64,000 bases of DNA from an uncultured Bacteroidota bacterium (GTDB lineage Bacteria; CLD3; SB21), in NCBI GenBank assembly GCA_964415295.1, contig CAYPYN010000002.1, positions 24,485 through 88,484 on the forward strand, read 5' to 3'. A program made the position numbers and the translations under genes. Shown here piece after piece: positions 5,005-50,952 of this stretch (position 1 is its first letter; each line of letters starts with the position of its first letter). Below the pieces are notes generated by a model, which searched no databases, was not told where the DNA came from, and was given only the letters and a program-made list of their open reading frames with translations.

Positions 5005-8000
5005 ATGTCAAAGAAGTTACCCTCTTTGCTCACGGGCAAACCCGCCTTCTTGCTGTTCGCAGGACTTCTGGCGTTTGTTTGCATCTTTTCTGCGCAATCC
5101 GTGTCCGCCCAGGGCGTAACGACCGCCGCCGTCAACGGTGTCGTTACCGACAATAATGGGCAACCGGTCTATGGCGCCAATGTGATCGCGATGCACGTAC
5201 CGTCGGGAACACGATTTGGTGCGGCGACGCGTGCCGATGGCCGCTATAACATTCCGGCTATGCGAGTCGGCGGTCCCTATACGATTTTCGTTACCTACAT
5301 CGGCTACAAGGAAGACCGGCGTGAAGGCATCACCTTGACCCTCGGTGAAAACCGCCGCATTGATTTCAAGCTGGTGGAAGAAGCGATCGAAGGCGAAGCC
5401 ATCGTGGTTGTCTCGGAGCGCAATCCTATCATCAGCGAATCAAGAACGGGAGCTGCCAAAACCGTTTCCAATCTTGAAATTCAATCCATGCCGACCCTCA
5501 GCCGCGATTTCGGCGACTTTACGCGACTGACACCCCAATTCTCCGGCAACAGTGCTGCCGGCCGTAATAACCGTTTCAACAACATCCAGATTGACGGTGC
5601 TGTCAATAACGACCTTTTCGGTTTGGCCTCCAGCGGTACACCGGGCGGACAAGCCGGAACCTCACCTATCAGTTTGGACGCTATTCAGGAATTCCAGGTC
5701 GTGATCGCTCCTTTTGACGTTCGTCAGGGCGGTTTCACCGGAGCCGGTATCAACGCTATTACCCGTTCGGGCAGCAATAATATTGAAGCGTCGGCTTATT
5801 ACCTCTTTAAGAATCAAGATTTGGTCCGTGAAAAACTTAAAGGCGTAACCATCACCGATTTCAGTGAGAAAACGGCCGGTTTCCGTGTTGGCGGTCCGAT
5901 CATCAAAGATAAGCTATTCTTCTTCGTGAACGGCGAAGTTACGCGCCGCACCGACCCGACCGAATACGGTATCAAAGGTGATAGCAATGCTACAGACTTT
6001 GTAGCTATTCCCGTTGATACGGCTCAGGCTTTGCGGGACTTCTTGATCAACAAATATGGTTATGATCCCGGCGGATTCGACATGCGTAACGTACCGATTC
6101 GCAGCAACAAAGTGTTTGCCCGCTTGGATTACAACATCACGGATAAACATCGGTTAACGCTGCGTCATAATTACGTGGGCGCCGATCAGGAAATCCTCCG
6201 CCGAGTCACCGGACAAAGCGCTACCAGCAGCAGCACGGGATTCCGTTTCGGCGATGCCGGTTATATCTTCAAGAACACGACCAATTCGACAGTCATGCAG
6301 TTGAACAGCACGCTCGGCAAATCGCTGTACAACGAGTTGACGATAGGTTATTCCTATATCGATGACCATCGCGCTGATCCGGGTAACAAACGTTTCCCGA
6401 CGGTCATTATCAACAACGGCGGCTCCCAGATGGTGGTCGGCACGGAACAGTTCTCCCAGAATAACTTCCTGAAACAAAGCATTCTGGAACTGACCGACAA
6501 CGTAACTTACTTCATGGGCGATCATACGTTCACAGTGGGCACGCACAATGAGTTCTTCTCATTTGAAAACTCGTTCTTACCCCAGTACAACGGCCGTTAT
6601 CAATACAACGGATTAACTCAGTTCATCCGCTCCGCCAACGGCGACACGAACATGATCAACGGCTACTTCCTGACATATCCGATTGATCCCGAAACGTATC
6701 AGCGTTCGACCGGCAAAGATCCTCAAGCTTCCTTCAGCGTTTCCCAGTTGGGCTTCTACGCTCAGGATGCATGGTCTGTCATGCCGAACTTAAAATTGAC
6801 CTTGGGTCTCCGTATTGATGTGCCCATCATCAGTGATAAGCCGTCGGCCAATGACACGTTTGCATTGGCATCCGACCTGGCAACGTACGGACACAAACGT
6901 ACGGACGAAGTCGCAAGCGGTAATCTGCTTTTCTCACCACGTATGGGATTCAACTGGGACGTCTTCAACGATAACCAAACACAGGTTCGCGGCGGTCTTG
7001 GTATCTTCTCTGGCCGCAGTCCTTATGTATGGATCTCGAATCAGTATTCCAACACCGGCGCCGATTTTGGAACCGTTTCATTCAATGCTACTCAGGCCCG
7101 TCCTTTGACGTTTAATGACGACCCGCTTAATCAGCCTATCGAGAACAGACCGGGCTTAGGACAGGGATACAACTCGACGATCAACCTGATGGATCCGGAC
7201 TTTAAATATCCTCAAGTGGTTCGCGGAAACTTCGCAGTCGACCAGGAATTACCGGGCGGCTGGATAGGAACCATTGAGCTTGTCGCATCGGATGCTCTCT
7301 ATGACGCTATGTTCCAGGATATCAGCTTGGTTGGACCACAAAGTTGGTCACCAAATGACGGCCGCCCACGCTACGGTACTATCAGTACCACAGCCACACC
7401 CAGCGCAACCATGGGTAGCCCGACAATCCGGCCAACCCGTCAGGATACTTTGACTTTCACGAAGACCTACGGGAATGTCATGTATCTGACCAATTCGAAG
7501 AATGGTTACCAGTATAACTTCACGGTCCAGTTACAGAAGACCTTTGCGACCGGATTTGGCGGCAAATACGACAAAGGCCTTTATGCAATGGCGGCTTACA
7601 CGCTGGGTAGATCCACAGACGTGACCAGCGCGACCAGCAGTATCGCTTTCTCAAACTGGCAGTTCAACCCGACACAGGGCGATCCCAATAACACGAAGAT
7701 CACGGCTAGGTCCAATTATGAACAGCGCCATGCTATTATTGCTTCGATATCCCAAAGCCTGGAACTGTACAAGAAGTGGAAAACCACGGTATCCTTATTC
7801 TATTCGGGCCGTTCGGGTCAGCCTTTTTCGACGACGTATAACGGAGACGTAAATGCGGACGGTGCTACTTCCAATGACCTTATCTATGTTCCGAAAGACA
7901 AAACCGATATCATTCTGGTAGGCAACAACGCAACCGACACCCGTACGGCCGATCAGATCTGGGTGGAACTGGATGACTGGATCAGCGATGATCCCGCTTT

Positions 8001-34944: not shown

Positions 34945-36333
34945 ATGAAAATACAATTCTGCGGCGCGGCAAAAAGCGTAACGGGTTCACAGCATCTGCT
35001 TTCCATCAACGGCAAGAAGCTCTTGCTCGATTGCGGCCTGTTCCAGGGTCACCGTGATGAGGCATTCAACCGGAACCGTAATTTCCCTTTCGACCCTGCG
35101 GAGATCGATGCTATGGTTCTTTCCCATGCGCACATCGATCATAGCGGCAATATCCCGAATCTGGTGGAAAAAGGGTTCAAAGGCAGCATTCACTGCACGA
35201 CTCCAACCGTGGATCTGTGCAAGGTCATGTTACAGGATTCCGCTTTTATACAGGAGCGAGACGTTGAGTTCATGAATAAGCGTCTGGCAAAGAAAGGCGA
35301 AATGCTCCGCGAGCCTCTCTACACGGTCAAACAGGCGCAGGCGTCGCTGGCGCAATTCAAAGGCATCGATTACGGCAAGACGTTCGAACCGATCCCGAAT
35401 GTCAAGGTCACATTTTTCAACGCCGGACATATGTTCGGCTCTGCTATGCTCCTTCTGGAGATCGTAGACAAAGGCAAGACATGGCGTGCCGGATTCACCG
35501 GCGACCTTGGACGTAAAAACCTGCCGATCATACAGGATCCGGATCAGATCACCTATCTTGACATCCTGATATCGGAAAGCACCTATGGGAACAAACTGCA
35601 CGATCCGGCTAAAGAGATCCAGGGCGACCTTGTGAGGGTGATCAAGGAAACCGTGGCCAAGAAAGGCAAGATCATCATTCCGGCTTTCAGTGTGGAGCGA
35701 ACGCAGGAGATCGTGTATCATCTCAACAAGCTGTATGAGAATAAGCTGGTCCCATCCATCCCGGTATTTGTTGACAGCCCGCTTGCAGTTAATGTGACCG
35801 ACGTTTTTACAAAATATCCGCGCTATTACGATGCGGAAGCGCAGTATCTTTTATCGCGGGATGATAATCCGTTCGTATTCACAGGACTCCGTTATATTTC
35901 CAAAGCGGACGATTCCAAAAAACTCAACGAGCTGAAAGAACCTTGCATCATCATTTCTGCATCCGGCATGTGCGAGGCAGGCCGCATTTTGCACCACCTG
36001 GCTAATAATATCGAGAATGCCAATAACACCATACTCATCGTCGGTTTTATGGCGGAGCATACGCTTGGACGTAAACTGGTTGACAAGGTCAGCCCGGTGA
36101 AAATATTCGGCGAAGAATATCAGGTCAATGCCCAAGTGGTCAAACTCAATTCATTCAGCGGACATGCGGACAAGAACGATCTGATGAATTTTGCCAAGAA
36201 GGTCGGCAAACAGGCTTCGGTTTTCCTCGTTCACGGTGAGGAACCGCAAAGCCAACCCTTTGCCGAGGCCTTGCGCGCGGATGGTTTCAAGAACGTAACC
36301 GTGCCGGATCTGTTGCAGAAGTTTGAATTCTGA
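34945..36333 (+). CDS. MBL-fold metallo-hydrolase, beta-CASP RNA-metabolising type
   Basis: Metallo-beta-lactamase motif HAHIDHSGN plus downstream beta-CASP-like His/Asp motifs; 462 aa. Confidence 0.6.
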   Translation: MKIQFCGAAKSVTGSQHLLSINGKKLLLDCGLFQGHRDEAFNRNRNFPFDPAEIDAMVLSHAHIDHSGNIPNLVEKGFKGSIHCTTPTVDLCKVMLQDSAFIQERDVEFMNKRLAKKGEMLREPLYTVKQAQASLAQFKGIDYGKTFEPIPNVKVTFFNAGHMFGSAMLLLEIVDKGKTWRAGFTGDLGRKNLPIIQDPDQITYLDILISESTYGNKLHDPAKEIQGDLVRVIKETVAKKGKIIIPAFSVERTQEIVYHLNKLYENKLVPSIPVFVDSPLAVNVTDVFTKYPRYYDAEAQYLLSRDDNPFVFTGLRYISKADDSKKLNELKEPCIIISASGMCEAGRILHHLANNIENANNTILIVGFMAEHTLGRKLVDKVSPVKIFGEEYQVNAQVVKLNSFSGHADKNDLMNFAKKVGKQASVFLVHGEEPQSQPFAEALRADGFKNVTVPDLLQKFEF

Positions 36334-36344
36334 TTTGTAATATT

Positions 36345-36362
36345 CCCCCTTAGAAAAGGGGG
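36345..36362. repeat. G5/C5 palindromic hairpin repeat, locus A
   Basis: CCCCCTTAGAAAAGGGGG hairpin; related ATCCCCCT segment 50 nt downstream (36411-36418); same motif family as 38787-38868. Confidence 0.6.
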
Positions 36363-36466
36363 TTATGAACGAACAAGAACAAGTGAGCGGGAGATAAAAC
36401 GGGGAGTACCATCCCCCTGACCAACTTTGTTAAGGAAATAAAACAGAAATAACAGGAGTACATACC

Positions 36467-37261
36467 ATGAGACATCTTTTGATCCTATTCCTCTTCGCAT
36501 TCATTTCCTGTACGACGATACACACGCAGACGACGAAACCGCTCCATCAATCGAAAAATTCCATTGCCGTCAATGCCATGCTCTGGCATCAGACGTCCGG
36601 TGAATACCGCGCGCTTTGTTATCAGGCATTCAATCTCGCGCAGCAACGCATCGATGAAGCGCTGAAGAACAAGACGGATAAGAAAATGGCCGTGATCGTG
36701 GACATCGATGAAACGATGCTGGATAACAGCCCTTACAATGCGAATCTCATATTCACAGACGGATCCTTCTCTCAATCCACCTGGAAAGCATGGACGCAAG
36801 GCGCCAACGCCATCCCTGTTCCTGGCGCCCTGGAATTCATGAAGTATGCCGTTTCCAAAGGTGTGGACGTGTTCTACATTTCGAATCGTAAACTGGAAGA
36901 AATGCCCGGTACCCTGGCCAATCTCATCAAATACGATTTCCCGCAGGCTGACTCCGCGCATATCCTGCTTCGCACGGAGCCGGGCGGCAAAGAAAAACGC
37001 CGGCTGAAAGTGGCCGAAACGCATGAGGTTATCTTGCTTTGCGGCGACAACCTGAATGATTTCACCGATATTTTTGAAAAGAAGAATATCGCGGAACGTT
37101 TCGAAGGCGTTGAAAAGCTGAAGGACCAATGGGGCAGAAAACTCATCGTTCTCCCCAATCCCATCTATGGAGACTGGGAAGAAGCGATTTATGATTATAA
37201 GTATTCCCATCCGGATAGCGTTAAAGACGCCAAACGGAAAGAAAATTTGCGGATCAAGTGA
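36467..37261 (+). CDS. 5'-nucleotidase / acid phosphatase, lipoprotein e(P4) family (HAD superfamily)
   Basis: ATG preceded by AACAGGAG; lipoprotein signal (LFLFAFISC); HAD motifs DIDETMLDN and GDNLNDF. Confidence 0.65.
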   Translation: MRHLLILFLFAFISCTTIHTQTTKPLHQSKNSIAVNAMLWHQTSGEYRALCYQAFNLAQQRIDEALKNKTDKKMAVIVDIDETMLDNSPYNANLIFTDGSFSQSTWKAWTQGANAIPVPGALEFMKYAVSKGVDVFYISNRKLEEMPGTLANLIKYDFPQADSAHILLRTEPGGKEKRRLKVAETHEVILLCGDNLNDFTDIFEKKNIAERFEGVEKLKDQWGRKLIVLPNPIYGDWEEAIYDYKYSHPDSVKDAKRKENLRIK

Positions 37262-37275
37262 CTATTAGGAATTGA

Positions 37276-37947
37276 TCAGTTTACGTTCTTGATGAATTCG
37301 TCGGTTCGAATGAGTTTCACCTTTCTCTCGGTGAATTCCTTGAACATTTGGTTCCGCAGTTCTTCATCACTGCCAACGACCGCATCCGTCATGATCACCA
37401 CTTCATACCCACGGTTTTGCGCCGCTTTGATGGTGGTATTTACGCAATAGGCCGCATCAAGTCCGACTATCGTAAGACGGCTGATACGTTCCTCCGTCAG
37501 GAACCGATCCAATTCCGGATTGCAGAAAGAATCTTCCTTGTCTTTCGTAAATACCGGTCCTGCAACCACCTTAAGCCGCTTGTCCAGAGCCGCCCCTACG
37601 CTCCCCTTTGCCATCGAATTATTGAGTAAATTGATGATCGGATCGGTGATCTCGCTGCGGATGTAGATGACCGGCATGCTGTCTTTCACAGCCTGATCGA
37701 TGACGTTGTTGATCGTCCCAATGAGACCGTCCGACATTTTGGCCAGGTTCTCATATTGCGACACGGTGCCTGTGGTACTCTCCTGGATGTCAATGACCAC
37801 CAAGGCCGCCTTTGGCGTTTCGTATTTTTCGATCGGTTTGCCTTCGGAAACCGCCTTGCCCCTATTCTCAAACAGAATCAGGTAGACAAAAAGAAATACG
37901 ACGATCAATACCAAGACGCCGAGTGTACTGAAAAATATTTTTTTCAT
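37276..37947 (-). CDS. Isochorismatase-family cysteine hydrolase, membrane-anchored
   Basis: N-terminal TM helix; isochorismatase-like core (ALVVIDIQ..., ...TIVGLDAAYCVNTT...). Confidence 0.55.
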   Translation of the reverse strand: MKKIFFSTLGVLVLIVVFLFVYLILFENRGKAVSEGKPIEKYETPKAALVVIDIQESTTGTVSQYENLAKMSDGLIGTINNVIDQAVKDSMPVIYIRSEITDPIINLLNNSMAKGSVGAALDKRLKVVAGPVFTKDKEDSFCNPELDRFLTEERISRLTIVGLDAAYCVNTTIKAAQNRGYEVVIMTDAVVGSDEELRNQMFKEFTERKVKLIRTDEFIKNVN

Positions 37948-37976
37948 GATGAAATCTCCGGATAAGTAATGGATCT

Positions 37977-38786
37977 TTACTCTCTCAAAAACTCGCGTAT
38001 GGAGCGCCAGTAAAAATCCGGATAAACGAATTCCAGGTTATTATGTCCGCCGCCGGGGATGGAGACGAATTTCTTCACGCCGGAATATTTTTCATACAGT
38101 TCTATCCCCAATCTTTGCGGGATCACTTCGTCCGCATCGCCGTGAATGACGAGCAGAGGGCATTTGACCTTGCCGATCTTATCCATGGATGGAAAGGGTT
38201 CACCCACAAGAAACAGTAAACCGCCCAATCCGTGCGCTTTGGCATATTCCGTTCCTGATGAGAGCGGCGTGATCAGCACGAGCTTCGCAATGTCCTGATC
38301 CTGTGCGGCATCAACGGCGACGGTCGTACCGATGGAACGGCCGTAAAGGATCACGTCGTTCATCCGGTAGCCGAGCTCCTGCGTAACATAACGCAGCGCC
38401 GTCCTTCCGTCGATATAGATCCCTTCTTCCGAAGGGCTTCCTTCGCTTCCGGCATAGCCTCTATAACTCACCACCAGTACATCATATCCCATTTCGAACA
38501 GTTTCGCCGCGCCGCTGATACGGTGATACATGTTTCCCGCATTGCCGTGAAAATAAACGATGATCTTCGAGCGGACCGTATCTTTCTTATCGGCAAAATA
38601 CAGCCCCTGGATCGTCAGACTATCGGAAGTTCGGATGTTGACCAATCGAATGTATTCCGGCAGGTCTTGTTGGGGTATGATCGTGCTCCTATCCGGATGA
38701 AAAGACATCCAGTTGACGAGTCCGTTGCAGGAGGAAAGGCAAAGCAGCGCGATCATTAAAGGCAGGACTATTGGCCATTCGCGCAA
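37977..38786 (-). CDS. Alpha/beta hydrolase (S9/BEM46-like), probable lipoprotein
   Basis: GxSxG nucleophile elbow (GRSIGTT), HGDADEV; likely TTG start at 38786 giving signal peptide with lipobox LSSC. The ORF-track start at 38888 runs through the palindromic repeat and is probably not coding. Confidence 0.55.
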   Translation of the reverse strand: MREWPIVLPLMIALLCLSSCNGLVNWMSFHPDRSTIIPQQDLPEYIRLVNIRTSDSLTIQGLYFADKKDTVRSKIIVYFHGNAGNMYHRISGAAKLFEMGYDVLVVSYRGYAGSEGSPSEEGIYIDGRTALRYVTQELGYRMNDVILYGRSIGTTVAVDAAQDQDIAKLVLITPLSSGTEYAKAHGLGGLLFLVGEPFPSMDKIGKVKCPLLVIHGDADEVIPQRLGIELYEKYSGVKKFVSIPGGGHNNLEFVYPDFYWRSIREFLRE

Positions 38787-38868
38787 TCCCCCTAACCCCC
38801 TTTGAAAGGGGGAATGGTCAGTACCGTATTTGTATTTGCCCCCCTTGAAAAGGGGGATATAGGGGGAT
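38787..38868. repeat. G5/C5 palindromic hairpin repeat, locus B (nested, two hairpins with inverted termini)
   Basis: ATCCCCCTAA - CCCCCTTTGAAAGGGGG - 25-nt spacer - CCCCCCTTGAAAAGGGGG - ATATAGGGGGAT; termini ATCCCCCT / AGGGGGAT are inverted repeats. Confidence 0.6.
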
Positions 38869-38913
38869 TTTCTTTTTGGAAGATTCATAACAACTCAGAC
38901 TTAGAAAATATGA

Positions 38914-39576
38914 TTACTTCTTCTTAAGAACGATATGCGCCGCTTTTTCAGACGGCATATAGTCAACGGTCTCATATCCGAGTTGGGATAAATTGATACC
39001 GTGCCACAAACTCTCACCATTGCCAAGCAATACGGGCGATACCGCGATATGCATTTCGTCCACTAACTTTGCGCTCAGATATTGCCGGATAGTATTCACG
39101 CCGCCGCCTAAACGGATGTCCTTTCCTTTGGCGCCCGCCCTGGCCAACTTCAGAGCGGCTTCGATCCCGTCGGTGATAAAGTGAAATGTGGTTCCTCCCT
39201 CCATCTCAATGGACGGCCTCGCATGATGGGTCAATATATAAACGGGTGTATGGTAAGGCGGATTATTTCCCCACCACCCTTTCCACGATTCATCTTGCCA
39301 GGGGCCTCTTATCGGACCGAACATATTACGTCCCAGTATCCATGCTCCGATATTTTCAAATCCTTTCACTGCAAAATTATTATCAATGCCTGTGGAACCG
39401 CCCTGACTGCCGCTGCCGAGCATCTCGCCGTGCATAGCCTGGAATGTCTTCGTATGCAAGACCCACTCATGCAAGGCCATGCCGCCCACGCCCATGGGAT
39501 TTTCAAGGCTTTGATCGGGCCCGGCTCCAAATCCGTCAATGGAAACGCTATAACACAAAACTTTTAATTTGCTCAT
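38914..39576 (-). CDS. Dihydrofolate-reductase-family protein (RibD C-terminal-domain-like)
   Basis: 220-aa product with pattern typical of DHFR-like/YwjB proteins (VSIDGFGAGPDQS...). Confidence 0.5.
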   Translation of the reverse strand: MSKLKVLCYSVSIDGFGAGPDQSLENPMGVGGMALHEWVLHTKTFQAMHGEMLGSGSQGGSTGIDNNFAVKGFENIGAWILGRNMFGPIRGPWQDESWKGWWGNNPPYHTPVYILTHHARPSIEMEGGTTFHFITDGIEAALKLARAGAKGKDIRLGGGVNTIRQYLSAKLVDEMHIAVSPVLLGNGESLWHGINLSQLGYETVDYMPSEKAAHIVLKKK

Positions 39577-48370: not shown

Positions 48371-48930
48371 GGGTAATTCACTTTCTGCATATTTTCAACC
48401 TGCCCGCCGGAAACCTGTTTTCGTATTCTCGGCCTTGATAAAAACGCCGGTGAAACCCGAGTTCGCAGACATGATTTGCGGAAAACGGCTTTCAGTAAAA
48501 GTCAAGTTTAACGTCTCTTCAAGATAGAGAATCGTTTTTAGCAGCCCGATCTGCGAACGAGGGTTAGGCATTTTTATCACAGCCGAAGTTTTCTTTGCCA
48601 CTTTCTTTTCTAAAAAGAAAGTGGATCCAATGACTAATATTTGAAAAACCATCCGGTTTAGAAAACCATTCTTCTTTCTTTTGCTGGCCCAAAGGAAAGA
48701 AGGAAAGAAAAGGGCCTTGGCTGTTGAAAAAACACCTAAAATCTCCGCTTCAGCCCTAAACAAAACAAACTCGCCCGCCGATACGGCGGACTCGGACATG
48801 TTTTGTTTTTAACGGGCTTTCGCTTCGATTTTTTGACGGCGTTTTTTCAAAGGCCCGAAAATTCACGTGATTTTTCTCATCACAATATGGTATCGAATAA
48901 TCTCTTTGCACCACCCTGGCCAGAATGGGG

Positions 48931-50952
48931 TTAAGATATCGACGCTTGAACCTTCCCGCTCAATTCCGTCAGATTCATATTCCCCAGCGCCATGCGGCTC
49001 AATTGGCCCATCACCCAGCGGGAACAGGCGCCGTCCAGACTGGAATTATCGATCTGCGAGAATTTTTTGATCATGAACGGGATCAGTTCCGTGATCTCGT
49101 TCTTGGTCGCGGCTTTGTAACGGATATTGAGCAATACGGAATCAAAATCCAGTTTGGGATGATGGTAATATTCCACCAGCATCATACCCGCAATATTCAG
49201 TTCCATCCCGCGGTCTTTGAGGAACTTGAACAGGTCGTAGATCCGGTCGTAACTGAAATCCTTGGCGGTGGTATAATGATTCTCAACATATTTCATCTGA
49301 TGCCCGAGGAAGATACCGGTGTGGCGGTGCGGGATGCCGAGTTCGTCATGGATCTTCTCCATCAGCCCTACGAGATTCTTTTTGAGAATGAATGTATACG
49401 TGTCTTCCGGAACATTCCACGAGCGGAGCTGTTGTATACGGTCAAAGACGTCCACAGGAATGGCGCGGCGGATCGCTTCGATCTTGTCGTCATCGAGCGG
49501 GATAGGTGCGGAATCGGTATCCGGGTACATGCGGTCTGCGCCGGGAAGAACGCGTTCGAATACCGTCGTACCGTCATGCGATGACTTACGCGTCTCATTG
49601 GGAACGCCTTTGAAGGCCATGCGGCAGCGTTCCTCCACCGTCTCGATCGCCGTGGGAATATCCTCTTTCGGCCCCCACAGAACGATCCATGCATCATCGC
49701 CGCTGCAATTAAGCAATTTAACGATTCTCTCCGACTCCTGTTCGGCAATGTGCGTACGCATATTCTCCGAATGGATCATATTGGGTTTCTCAATACACGC
49801 GATCACTTTGAGCCGCGATGATATCTCATCGGCGAACATCTGACCGGGCTGAGTAAAATGCGATAATATACTCTTGAAGCCCGGCAGTCGAACGGCTACG
49901 ATCTCGTGTTTGGCAACTTTCGCCGCGGCCATCGGTTCGTAACTGAACGTCCAATCGTCCGGTTCAAGTTTGACGGATTCTGTTTTCCACGAATCCGGAT
50001 TGCGGACCTTTTTTTTCAGAAGTTCCACGATGCGCAGGAGCGCGAACTGCCGGAATGCCTCGTTGTGCGTCAATTGGGGCATCCAGCGCGTGTGCGCAAC
50101 GCCTTTGATCTCGACGCGTGTGCCGCCGCGGCAGCTGACATTGACGTCGGCGCGGGTGGAACCGATACCGGTCCGGACTTTTCCAGTACTGCGGTTCAAA
50201 AAACGGATATAATCCGCGCCTTCTTTTACTTCATCGGGATTCACAAAATCCGCATGCGTCACCGTTTCGATCAGCGGCATGCCGAGACGGTCCGTCTTGT
50301 ACACGCGCACATGGCCGATGTCGGAAATTTCCCGGCAGGAATCCTCTTCGATGCTCAACTGGATGAGGTTGACCGTCTTGTGTTTCAGCTGGATCTTCCC
50401 GCCGACGCCGATGATGGCCGTTCTCTGGAATCCGGTCGGAATACTGCCGTCGAGGTACTGCTTGCGGGTGATGTGAACTTCTCCCACGATATTCATCTTA
50501 TTCAAGATCGAGATCTCCAGCGCGATATCGAGCGCTTCCGGATCCATGGCGAAAGGCGGCGTATCGTCCACCTCATACGTACACGCCGTTTTATTTTTGA
50601 TGCGGTAAATAATGTTCTTTCGGGTCTTGAATTCCATCAGCGCCGTACCGTCGTACTCGCCCAGTTCGCTCAGCGTCGGGCGCATGTGGCGAATGACCTC
50701 CGCGTCGTAATCGTCGTGGGCGTTGTATTTTCCGGCCGGACAGCGGCAGAAAAGTTTCCGCCGTGTCAGCAGCTGCTGGTGAACTTCCAGTCCGGACTTG
50801 AATCCGATCCGGTCGTAATCTTCCTGCGTGGCATCTTTCCGGCTGACGTATCCGATGGCTTGTTTGCTTTGTTCGTAATTCTGCTGGGGATCAAAAGGCT
50901 GGTTCATGAGGATTGTGCACCATGTGAAGCATCGATTGATGTTGTCTTGCAA
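48931..50952 (-). CDS. gatE: Glutamyl-tRNA(Gln) amidotransferase subunit E-like (archaeal-type GatE)
   Basis: 673 aa; GatB/E catalytic core with GatE-type signature DYDRIGFKSGLEVHQQL...RKLFCRCP and insertion-sized extra length versus GatB. TTG start at 50952; alternative ATG at 50907. Confidence 0.75.
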   Translation of the reverse strand: MQDNINRCFTWCTILMNQPFDPQQNYEQSKQAIGYVSRKDATQEDYDRIGFKSGLEVHQQLLTRRKLFCRCPAGKYNAHDDYDAEVIRHMRPTLSELGEYDGTALMEFKTRKNIIYRIKNKTACTYEVDDTPPFAMDPEALDIALEISILNKMNIVGEVHITRKQYLDGSIPTGFQRTAIIGVGGKIQLKHKTVNLIQLSIEEDSCREISDIGHVRVYKTDRLGMPLIETVTHADFVNPDEVKEGADYIRFLNRSTGKVRTGIGSTRADVNVSCRGGTRVEIKGVAHTRWMPQLTHNEAFRQFALLRIVELLKKKVRNPDSWKTESVKLEPDDWTFSYEPMAAAKVAKHEIVAVRLPGFKSILSHFTQPGQMFADEISSRLKVIACIEKPNMIHSENMRTHIAEQESERIVKLLNCSGDDAWIVLWGPKEDIPTAIETVEERCRMAFKGVPNETRKSSHDGTTVFERVLPGADRMYPDTDSAPIPLDDDKIEAIRRAIPVDVFDRIQQLRSWNVPEDTYTFILKKNLVGLMEKIHDELGIPHRHTGIFLGHQMKYVENHYTTAKDFSYDRIYDLFKFLKDRGMELNIAGMMLVEYYHHPKLDFDSVLLNIRYKAATKNEITELIPFMIKKFSQIDNSSLDGACSRWVMGQLSRMALGNMNLTELSGKVQASIS

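What the first reader, a model, noticed from the sequence alone, without database searches (positions are those of the whole stretch)
36345..38868. G5/C5 palindromic hairpin repeat family at two intergenic loci bracketing a three-gene block
Locus A (36345-36362) has CCCCCTTAGAAAAGGGGG and, 50 nt on, ATCCCCCT. Locus B (38787-38868) has ATCCCCCTAA-CCCCCTTTGAAAGGGGG-spacer-CCCCCCTTGAAAAGGGGG-ATATAGGGGGAT, i.e. two hairpins enclosed by inverted termini ATCCCCCT / AGGGGGAT, resembling a tiny MITE or REP-like element. The loci flank the P4 phosphatase, isochorismatase and alpha/beta-hydrolase genes. Locus B creates an artefactual N-terminal ORF extension of the hydrolase (PLFKGG, PFQRGLGG are translated repeat).
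Basis: seen in the sequence. Interest (0 to 1): 0.45.

Follow-up and report, generated by a model that had tools for sequence, protein, structure and literature searches.

The report
BoxC-like palindromic repeats, DUF559-linked
The G5/C5 hairpins are real copies of a small palindromic repeat found between genes in many bacterial phyla; it is built like the long-unexplained E. coli BoxC repeat and typically frames a small DUF559 nuclease gene, which has been lost from this window.

Summary
Three CCCCCTT-loop-AAGGGGG hairpins occur in the 64 kb, all at the two reported loci, against 0.00 expected by chance.

- **Locus A** (36342-36441) is the wreck of a ~450-bp mini-element. In five related genomes the same site holds a 114-123-aa DUF559 (Vsr-like) nuclease gene framed by inverted ends of the form ATT-hairpin-YTA-GGGGG-TTGTA. 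Here the left hairpin survives, the gene is deleted and the right end has decayed.
- **Locus B** (38785-38868) is two such units in inverted orientation. It folds into one long REPIN-like hairpin. Five relatives have it, one lacks it, and two relatives carry another copy elsewhere.

The unit (hairpin + YTA + GGGGG) was found in at least 120 genome stretches from about 17 phyla, where chance predicts roughly one hit. It lies almost always outside genes. DUF559 is the only gene family that recurs next to it. Conversely, 74 of 80 independently found DUF559 genes have such hairpins beside them, against 4-6% in controls. E. coli BoxC has the same build, and a copy abuts ycjD, a DUF559 gene.

Mobilisation by DUF559 is inferred, not shown. 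I found no published report of this link.

The parts
36342..36365 (+). Left-end unit of a decayed DUF559 mini-element: ATT-CCCCCTTAGAAAAGGGGG-TTA. The hairpin is 36345-36362, 12 nt after the stop of the beta-CASP gene. The GGGGG box that normally follows has been lost.
   Evidence: A profile of 129 units from other phyla matches here at E 6e-6. It lies at the same site as the left ends of the elements in L125, L126 and L329-L331. DNA hairpin -7.6 kcal/mol, z -2.5.
36366..36406 (+). About 40 nt left between the two ends, where relatives carry the 114-123-aa DUF559 gene. This is an internal deletion.
   Evidence: No DUF559 similarity anywhere in the window.
36407..36441 (+). Degenerate right-end unit: TACCATCCCCC-TGA-CCAACTTTGTTAAGGAAA-TAA. 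The intact form in relatives is TACAACCCCC-TAG-CCCCCTTTGTTAAGGGGG-AAT.
   Evidence: Alignment A3 with five relatives.
38785..38815 (-). Full unit (alpha arm of the Locus B doublet). Read on the minus strand it is ATT-CCCCCTTTCAAAGGGGG-TTA-GGGGG-ATT.
   Evidence: Profile match E 1e-9. Near-identical in L124, L220, L125 and L126.
38816..38838 (.). Spacer of the doublet (GGTCAGTACCGTATTTGTATTTG). It is conserved among copies at different loci in relatives.
   Evidence: Compare L126 15766-15847 and L123 8913-8974.
38839..38868 (+). Second unit (beta arm): CCCCCCTTGAAAAGGGGG-ATATA-GGGGG-AT.
   Evidence: Profile match to the hairpin, E 1e-3. Conserved in relatives.
38785..38868 (.). The whole ~84-nt doublet: two units in inverted orientation with the C5/G5 boxes outermost. 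As a single strand it folds into one long imperfect hairpin, like a REPIN. It lies between the RibD_C stop (38914) and the hydrolase start.
   Evidence: Fold -23.6 kcal/mol, z -4.5, with 0 of 200 shuffles as stable. Absent in L123.

Best explanation
The hairpins belong to a widespread family of repetitive extragenic palindromes. The basic unit is about 30 nt: a 7-8-bp hairpin (CCCCCTT-loop-AAGGGGG), a 3-nt linker (usually YTA) and a GGGGG box.

The unit occurs in three arrangements:
1. Inverted ends of a ~450-bp mini-element carrying one small DUF559 (Vsr-like PD-(D/E)XK) nuclease gene. The G boxes face the gene, and the gene's stop codon lies inside the right end.
2. Gene-less pairs of the same polarity, which look like deletion derivatives.
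3. Gene-less pairs of the opposite polarity, which fold into one long hairpin like REPINs.

In the window, Locus A is type 1 after loss of the gene and decay of the right end. Locus B is type 3.

Inferred mechanism: the DUF559 nuclease recognises and cuts or nicks its own end units. This keeps the gene linked to them and, directly or through break repair or gene conversion, spreads or maintains the gene-less copies. That would parallel the REP/REPIN-RAYT partnership, but with a different kind of enzyme.

The window copies are non-autonomous or dead. Any present-day effect, such as stabilising or ending transcripts or altering the 5' end of the hydrolase gene, would be secondary.

Shown: family membership, presence/absence variation, extragenic location, and the two-way association with DUF559. 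Inferred: cutting, and any mobilisation by DUF559.
For: **Same-site comparison.**
- L125, L126, L123, L220 and L329 carry DUF559 framed by ATT-hairpin-YTA-GGGGG-TTGTA ... TACAA-CCCCC-TAG-hairpin-AAT between the beta-CASP and phosphatase genes.
- The window keeps the left hairpin and a decayed right end.
- L124 has no element at this site.

**Locus B.**
- The doublet is present in five relatives and absent in L123.
- A copy with the same spacer lies upstream of asparaginase in L123 and L126 but not in the window, and in the opposite orientation relative to the downstream gene.

**Family.**
My own estimate of chance is 0.4-3 hits.
- Only 5 of 137 instances lie inside open frames of 200 codons or more, against 65% of random positions.
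- Several short-read contigs end inside units.

**Association with DUF559.**
- DUF559 is the only recurrent family abutting the G-box side.
- It is also the top recurrent family within 1.5 kb, and no transposase family recurs there.
- Of 80 DUF559 loci found by protein alone, 74 have a perfect C/T-arm hairpin within 170 nt. That makes 121 units at a median of 37 nt from the gene. Controls gave 3.7% and 6%.
- Repeat subtype follows the nearest protein neighbour in 52 of 63 cases, against about 57% expected.

**Enzyme.**
- Pfam DUF559, E 2e-33.
- PDB relatives include 3hrl and the homing-endonuclease domain 3r3p.
- D53, E64, D66 and H70 are invariant.

**E. coli.** BoxC has the same C-box-TAA-hairpin build. 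Copies lie at and just after the end of ycjD, a DUF559 gene. That repeat has a median of 17 places per genome.
Against: - No activity of any small DUF559 protein on these repeats is known. A PD-(D/E)XK nuclease can cut but is not known to rejoin DNA, so it cannot by itself be a transposase.
- Only about 10% of the G5 units found have a DUF559 gene next to them.
- No target-site duplication or clean filled/empty junction could be defined.
- The window holds just three hairpins and no DUF559 gene, so multi-copy status in the source genome itself is not shown.
- Protein-repeat covariation is modest: within-type identity 0.505 against 0.49 between types.
- The Locus B doublet is about 85-90% conserved in place across relatives whose proteins are only 70-80% identical. 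That could also mean it has a local function.
Confidence: 0.68

Rival explanations
1. The units are homing sites rather than products. DUF559 would be a free-standing homing endonuclease gene that cuts gene-less unit pairs and copies itself between them by break repair. The units themselves would exist and spread for some other reason.
For: - DUF559 is related in sequence to the I-Bth0305I homing-endonuclease domain 3r3p.
- The gene always sits between two units with the G boxes inward.
- Gene-less pairs of the same polarity with 25-40-nt spacers exist, for example in L141, L147 and L201.
- Gene presence varies at one site among close relatives.
Against: - It does not explain why the units are so widespread and conserved, or the opposite-polarity doublets such as Locus B.
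- Locus A shows directly that a gene-less pair can arise by deletion of the gene.
- The gene's stop codon lies inside the right unit, so gene and end are one entity.
Confidence: 0.2
2. They are simply local transcription terminators or RNA-stabilising hairpins of the beta-CASP and RibD_C genes.
For: - Hairpin A starts 12 nt after the beta-CASP stop, and Locus B lies after the RibD_C stop.
- The stems are stable and GC-rich.
- REP-type elements are known to affect mRNA ends (my own knowledge).
Against: - No T-run follows hairpin A or the minus-strand (gene-sense) hairpins of Locus B. The terminator scan did not list any of the three hairpins.
- The conserved G box, linker and spacer, and the same unit in about 17 phyla, are not needed for termination.
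- The doublet occurs in either orientation relative to the downstream gene.
- L123 and L124 keep the genes without the repeats.
Confidence: 0.08
3. Classical MITEs: deletion derivatives of an insertion sequence, moved in trans by a DDE or Y1 transposase encoded elsewhere.
For: Locus B has inverted termini (ATCCCCCT/AGGGGGAT) and is about 84 nt long. It shows presence/absence variation.
Against: - No transposase family recurs within 1.5 kb of 137 units.
- The only gene framed by the ends is DUF559.
- No target-site duplication is recognisable.
- The REP hallmark GTAG is absent.
Confidence: 0.06
4. Operator sites of a regulator that controls the phosphatase and the hydrolase-isochorismatase units. 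Both loci lie 30-110 nt upstream of these converging transcription units.
For: Position relative to the two start codons. Perfect 17-18-bp palindromes.
Against: - The same unit occurs in unrelated contexts across phyla.
- L123 lacks Locus B and L124 lacks Locus A, with the genes intact.
- At Locus A the relatives have a whole gene inserted at that spot.
Confidence: 0.03

Closest known systems
BoxC repeats of Escherichia coli (56 bp, 22-32 copies per genome; function and origin unknown)
   Same: - Same build: C-rich box, TAA, then a GC-rich hairpin with a C/T-rich 5' arm. BoxC is CCCCTCACCC-TAA-CCCTCTCCCC-AAA-GGGGCGAGGG; here it is (AT)CCCCC-TAA-CCCCCTTT-G-AAAGGGGG.
- Extragenic and multi-copy.
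- A copy lies at and just after the end of the DUF559 gene ycjD.
- Intermediate variants, such as CCCACCCC-TAA-CCCCTCC..GGAGGGG, flank DUF559 genes in metagenomes.
   Different: - The stem and box sequences differ, so this is not a BoxC copy by sequence.
- E. coli ycjD has BoxC on one side only.
- I found no published link between BoxC and ycjD.
REP/REPIN elements with their RAYT transposases
   Same: - Short extragenic palindromes.
- Inverted doublets that fold into one long hairpin; Locus B gives -23.6 kcal/mol.
- A single small enzyme gene framed by inverted copies of the repeat.
- Many gene-less copies per gene.
- Repeat subtype tracks enzyme lineage.
   Different: - The framed gene is a PD-(D/E)XK (Vsr-like) DUF559 nuclease, not a Y1 HUH transposase.
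- There is no GTAG head.
- The unit has an extra G box beside the hairpin.
- One repeat sequence is shared across many phyla, whereas REPs are lineage-specific (my own knowledge).
Free-standing and intron-borne homing endonuclease genes of the Vsr-like (EDxHD, I-Bth0305I) family
   Same: Related nuclease fold and sequence: 3r3p at E 2e-4. A small selfish-looking gene with presence/absence variation at a fixed site.
   Different: Not inside an intron, intein or host gene. It has its own hairpin-containing inverted ends and many gene-less derivatives.
MITEs such as Correia/NEMIS, ERIC and RUP
   Same: Size (80-150 nt), inverted termini, intergenic location, potential to fold.
   Different: No transposase parent and no recognisable target-site duplication.

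Membership tests
REP/REPIN-RAYT system | Short palindromic units located outside genes and present in many copies | tested here: met
   Only 5 of 137 units lie inside long open frames, against 65% of random positions. Several copies occur per genome in some assemblies. Copy number in the source genome itself is not known; the 64 kb holds three hairpins.
REP/REPIN-RAYT system | Inverted doublets that fold into one long hairpin (REPIN) | tested here: met
   Locus B: -23.6 kcal/mol, z -4.5.
REP/REPIN-RAYT system | Associated gene is a RAYT (Y1 HUH transposase of the IS200/IS605 type) framed by the repeats | tested here: not met
   The framed gene is Pfam DUF559. No transposase family recurs near 137 units.
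REP/REPIN-RAYT system | Conserved GTAG (or similar) tetranucleotide at the head of the palindrome | tested here: not met
   Units begin (A/G)TT-CCCCC.
E. coli BoxC repeat family | C-rich box, TAA, then a GC-rich hairpin, about 50-56 nt | tested here: met
   Published BoxC sequences compared with window 38785-38815.
E. coli BoxC repeat family | Sequence similarity to the BoxC consensus | tested here: not met
   The stem is CCCCCTT/AAGGGGG against CCCTCTCCCC/GGGGCGAGGG. Only the layout and the TAA are shared, although intermediate variants exist next to DUF559 genes.
[quoted passage not shown] | Terminal inverted repeats | tested here: met
   ATCCCCCT ... AGGGGGAT at Locus B. 34-nt inverted ends on the gene-bearing form.
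[quoted passage not shown] | Target-site duplication | tested here: inconclusive
   The only empty site (L123) differs from the filled sites by more than the element, so the junctions cannot be read.
[quoted passage not shown] | Parent element encoding a transposase with the same ends | tested here: not met
   The parent-like element encodes DUF559 only.
Intrinsic (Rho-independent) terminator | GC-rich hairpin directly followed by a T-run on the sense strand | tested here: not met
   Hairpin A is followed by TTATGAACG. The minus-strand hairpins of Locus B are followed by CAAATAC and TTAGGGGG. The consensus scan did not list them.
Homing endonuclease gene element | Nuclease gene present or absent at a fixed site among close relatives | tested here: met
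   Present in L123, L125, L126, L220 and L329. L330 and L331 end inside the left-end unit, so the gene cannot be seen there. Remnant in the window; absent in L124.
Homing endonuclease gene element | The encoded enzyme cleaves the empty site | not testable with these tools
   Needs biochemistry.

The most novel reading that the evidence does not exclude
BoxC-type extragenic palindromes (hairpin + 3-nt linker + G-rich box) are a pan-bacterial repeat class. Their partner is the small DUF559/YcjD nuclease. This would be a second repeat-enzyme partnership, parallel to REP/REPIN-RAYT but built on a Vsr-like PD-(D/E)XK nuclease. It would give E. coli BoxC and ycjD their first functional hypothesis. 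The window shows both end states: a dead gene-bearing element and a REPIN-like doublet.
Probability: 0.4. Interest if true: 0.8.

Novelty: new variant of a known kind. Interest (0 to 1): 0.62.

Why it matters
**Open questions it touches.**
- Small palindromic repeats are common in bacterial genomes, but only REP/REPIN has a known partner enzyme. BoxC has been a catalogued E. coli repeat of unknown origin for decades.
- DUF559 is a very large family of small 'endonuclease-like' proteins with almost no functional data. Only 25 papers in the searchable library mention it, and none link it to repeats.

**What a true link would do.**
- It would explain why these genes are scattered between conserved genes.
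- It would explain a class of spurious ORFs and N-terminal extensions (PLFKGG, GLGG and similar peptides).
- It would account for some contig breaks in metagenome assemblies.
- It is directly testable in E. coli K-12 with YcjD and BoxC.

**For this window.** The two loci are relics, not regulators of the three-gene block.

Tried and rejected
- **Bare hairpin scan.** I therefore added the G box to the pattern.
- **Locus search with a divergent alignment.** The eight-sequence DUF559 alignment A1 was too divergent for the locus search. A closer alignment, A2, was used instead.
- **Literature.** Searches for the sequence strings, DUF559, COG2852/PF04480, ycjD and Vsr-like gave nothing on repeats.
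- **Vsr site analogy.** The idea that the conserved YTAGG mimics the Vsr site CTWGG failed. Across 121 units next to DUF559 genes the linker varies (TTA, CAA, CCA, TAA...), and only 23 contain TAGGG.
- **Composite-transposon reading.** Left end at A, right-end-type unit at B1, three genes as cargo: rejected. Locus A has its own right end, and relatives lacking A or B keep the genes.
- **Clean filled/empty BoxC site in E. coli.** The attempt beside ycjD was confounded, because a different segment carrying TetR-family regulator and RND efflux adaptor genes replaces that side in about 38% of genomes.
- **Naming the source organism.** Cluster names gave only 'bacterium'.
- **DUF559 in viral contigs.** None of the 26 viral stretches with the unit has it.
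- **Rfam.** Only a tRNA was found in the window.
Full report
**Observation.** The sequence is as described.
- Locus A has CCCCCTTAGAAAAGGGGG at 36345-36362 and ATCCCCCT at 36411-36418.
- Locus B has ATCCCCCTAA from 38786, hairpins at 38796-38812 and 38839-38856, and ATATAGGGGGAT ending at 38868.
- CCCCCTTN{3,4}AAGGGGG occurs three times in the window, against 0.00 in 100 shuffles.
- No other C5...G5 hairpin, or comparable C/T-arm hairpin of this type, exists in the 64 kb.

**Gene context**.

| Gene | Coordinates | Strand |
|---|---|---|
| beta-CASP metallo-hydrolase | 34945-36333 | + |
| Locus A | 36342-36441 | |
| class B acid phosphatase | 36467-37261 | + |
| isochorismatase-family protein | 37276-37947 | - |
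| alpha/beta hydrolase | 37977-38756 (ORF open to 38888) | - |
| Locus B | 38785-38868 | |
| RibD_C protein | 38914-39576 | - |

**Locus A is a dead DUF559 element.**
- Syntenic contigs from relatives (phosphatase 68-80% identical, beta-CASP about 90%) were fetched. One more turned up in the genome scan (L220).
- In L123, L125, L126, L220 and L329 the gap between beta-CASP and the phosphatase holds a 114-123-aa gene. It matches Pfam DUF559 at E 2e-33.
- That gene is framed by inverted 34-nt ends: ATT-CCCCCTT(loop)AAGGGGG-YTA-GGGGG-TTGTA ... TACAA-CCCCC-TAG-CCCCCTTT(loop)AAGGGGG-AAT.
- The gene's stop codon is the TAG inside the right end.
- L330 and L331 show the same left-end units, but their contigs end there, so the gene cannot be seen.
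- In the window the left hairpin with its TTA is intact and about 40 nt follow. Then 36407-36441 aligns with the right end, with CCCCC changed to CCAAC and GGGGG to GGAAA (alignment A3).
- L124 has no element at this site. L329-L331 have two or three left units in tandem.
- No DUF559 similarity exists anywhere in the window.

**Locus B is a REPIN-like doublet.**
- It consists of a full unit on the minus strand (38815-38785, ATT-hairpin-TTA-GGGGG-ATT), a 23-nt spacer, and a second unit (hairpin-ATATA-GGGGG-AT). The C5/G5 boxes are outermost.
- As a single strand it folds into one long imperfect hairpin: -23.6 kcal/mol, z -4.5.
- It is nearly identical in L124 and L220 and slightly decayed in L125 and L126. 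It is absent in L123, where the RibD_C stop is 13 nt from a hydrolase start encoding MRYLIFIVTILLSSC.
- A copy with the same spacer lies just upstream of the asparaginase gene in L123 and L126. There it is in the opposite orientation relative to the downstream gene. It is absent from that site in the window.
- The long ORF from 38888 runs through the repeat (PLFKGG, PFQRGLGG) and is not ancestral.

**The unit is pan-bacterial and extragenic.**
- An exact scan of 596 Gb of species-representative genomes was run for CCCCCTTN{3,5}AAGGGGGYTAGGGGG. My estimate of chance is 0.4 hits at even base composition and about 3 for GC-rich DNA.
- The groups include Cyanobacteria, Bacteroidota, Ignavibacteria/Kapaibacteria, Calditrichota, Nitrospirota, Nitrospinota, Poribacteria, Desantisbacteria, Omnitrophota, Patescibacteria, Gamma- and Betaproteobacteria, Myxococcota, Planctomycetota, Chloroflexota, Spirochaetota, Thermodesulfobacteriota and Firmicutes. 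Cultured isolates and closed chromosomes are among them.
- The flanks are also conserved: (A/G)TT before the hairpin, and ATT, ATC or TTGTA after the G box.
- A profile built only from these foreign units finds the window's alpha unit at E 1e-9 and hairpin A at E 6e-6.
- Units avoid genes: 5 of 137 lie inside open frames of 200 codons or more, against 65% of random positions.
- Short-read contigs often end inside units (L123, L330, L331), as expected for repeats.
- Viral contigs hold 26 stretches with the unit, none with DUF559.

**Two-way association with DUF559.**
- Starting from the DNA motif: 12 of 120 loci have a DUF559 match, in most cases directly abutting the G-box side.
- Among ORFs on that side DUF559 is the only recurrent family. 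Within 1.5 kb it is the top one, and no transposase family recurs.
- Starting from the protein alone: 80 metagenome loci were found. Of these, 74 have a perfect hairpin of at least 6 bp with a C/T arm within 170 nt. That makes 121 units at a median of 37 nt from the gene. Controls gave 3.7% of random and 6% of distal segments.
- About half of the protein-seeded loci carry the G5 type (46 with that type alone).
- The others carry variants of the same layout: CCCCTCC..GGAGGGG-TTA-GGGGTGGG, CCCCTCT..AGAGGGG-TCC-GGGGGTGT and CCTCCTT..AAGGAGG.
- Repeat type follows the nearest protein neighbour in 52 of 63 cases, against about 57% expected. A permutation test gave 30 of 2000.

**The enzyme.** DUF559 is classed with Vsr and the I-Bth0305I homing endonuclease in the PD-(D/E)XK superfamily (PMC3424549; PMC1189080). 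The protein found here matches 3hrl (E 5e-19) and 3r3p (E 2e-4). It keeps D53, E64, D66 and H70 invariant. The only experimental work found concerns a larger Caulobacter DUF559-domain protein with Vsr-like behaviour (PMC12907096).

**Link to E. coli BoxC.**
- Published BoxC members read CCCCTCACCC-TAA-CCCTCTCCCC-AAA-GGGGCGAGGG (PMC2267715 supplement). That is the same box-TAA-hairpin layout.
- In K-12 a BoxC copy lies about 160 nt past the end of ycjD, which is annotated as a DUF559 gene. A degenerate copy overlaps the ycjD stop codon.
- That repeat occurs in all 5,426 complete E. coli genomes, with a median of 17 places each.
- I found no paper linking BoxC or any repeat to ycjD or DUF559.

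**Interpretation.**
- Firmly supported: the window's hairpins are members of a BoxC-like family of extragenic palindromes. Locus A is a decayed gene-bearing element. Locus B is a gene-less inverted doublet. The family is statistically tied to DUF559 genes.
- Inferred: the DUF559 nuclease acts on the units, and this underlies their spread or maintenance. That would be a REP/RAYT-like partnership, or alternatively homing of the gene into unit pairs.
- A nuclease alone cannot rejoin DNA, so host repair would have to complete any movement.
- No junction could be read cleanly enough to see a target duplication.
- A purely local role as terminator or operator does not fit. There is no T-run, orientation varies, and the repeats are absent from some relatives that keep the genes. 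Secondary effects on transcripts remain possible.

**Limits.**
- Only 64 kb of the source genome was available, so its copy number is unknown.
- The source organism is named only 'bacterium'.
- Novelty rests on open-access full-text searches and my own knowledge.

Noticed in passing
window 38756-38888 (minus strand): The doublet insertion displaced the hydrolase start. L123, without the repeat, begins MRYLIFIVTILLSSC. In the window the in-frame options are ATG 38756 (MIALLCLSSC, too short for a signal peptide), TTG 38786 inside the repeat end GGGGGATTG (MREWPIVLPLMIALLCLSSC, a plausible lipoprotein signal), or ATG 38888 (a 54-aa leader through the repeat). The repeat may now supply the start codon.
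   Followed up: partly
window 48371-48949: A ~570-nt intergenic stretch upstream of the asparaginase gene, where relatives carry the G5 doublet instead. Part of it (48415-48630) recurs in L125 13113-13328 next to a different gene. It contains its own inverted repeats (for example CCACTTTCTTTTCTAAAAAGAAAGTGG). Probably another dispersed repeat.
   Followed up: no
window 37262-37976, and L123-L126, L220, L329: The gene between the phosphatase and the hydrolase is variable among relatives: isochorismatase (window, L123), VapB-PIN toxin-antitoxin pair (L125), a 104-aa ORF (L124), two ORFs (L329), nothing (L126, L220). No G5 hairpins mark its borders.
   Followed up: partly
L328 (E. coli K-12, NC_000913.3 1350900-1352300): ycjD (DUF559) ends inside a degenerate BoxC. 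About 60 nt further on there is a partial duplicate of the ycjD 3' end, followed by a partial unit and then a full BoxC. In about 38% of complete E. coli genomes this side is replaced by a different segment carrying a TetR-family regulator and an RND efflux adaptor gene (L357).
   Followed up: partly
L139 (Nitrospirales OY820905.2) 5256-5891: Three tandem ~30-aa DUF559 fragments spaced about 275 nt apart, besides one full DUF559 gene at 2364-2714.
   Followed up: no
L127, L128, L191, L225 and L145, L186, L217, L241 (Desantisbacteria MAG JAZDHC01): In this MAG the G5 unit is embedded in longer repeats, with near-identical flanks over the ~30-50 nt shown on each side, on at least eight contigs. 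Several lie close to contig ends.
   Followed up: no
L141, L147, L201, L156, L188 (genome scan loci): Gene-less pairs of units with the same polarity as the gene-bearing element (hairpin-YTA-G5, 25-40-nt spacer, C5-TAR-hairpin). Some keep the TTGTA that follows the left end. They look like MITE-style deletion derivatives.
   Followed up: partly
L232 372-405: A single perfect 38-nt palindrome, ATCCCCCTAACCCCCTTTGCAAAGGGGGTTAGGGGGAT: one hairpin flanked by boxes on both sides, the most compact form of the unit seen.
   Followed up: no
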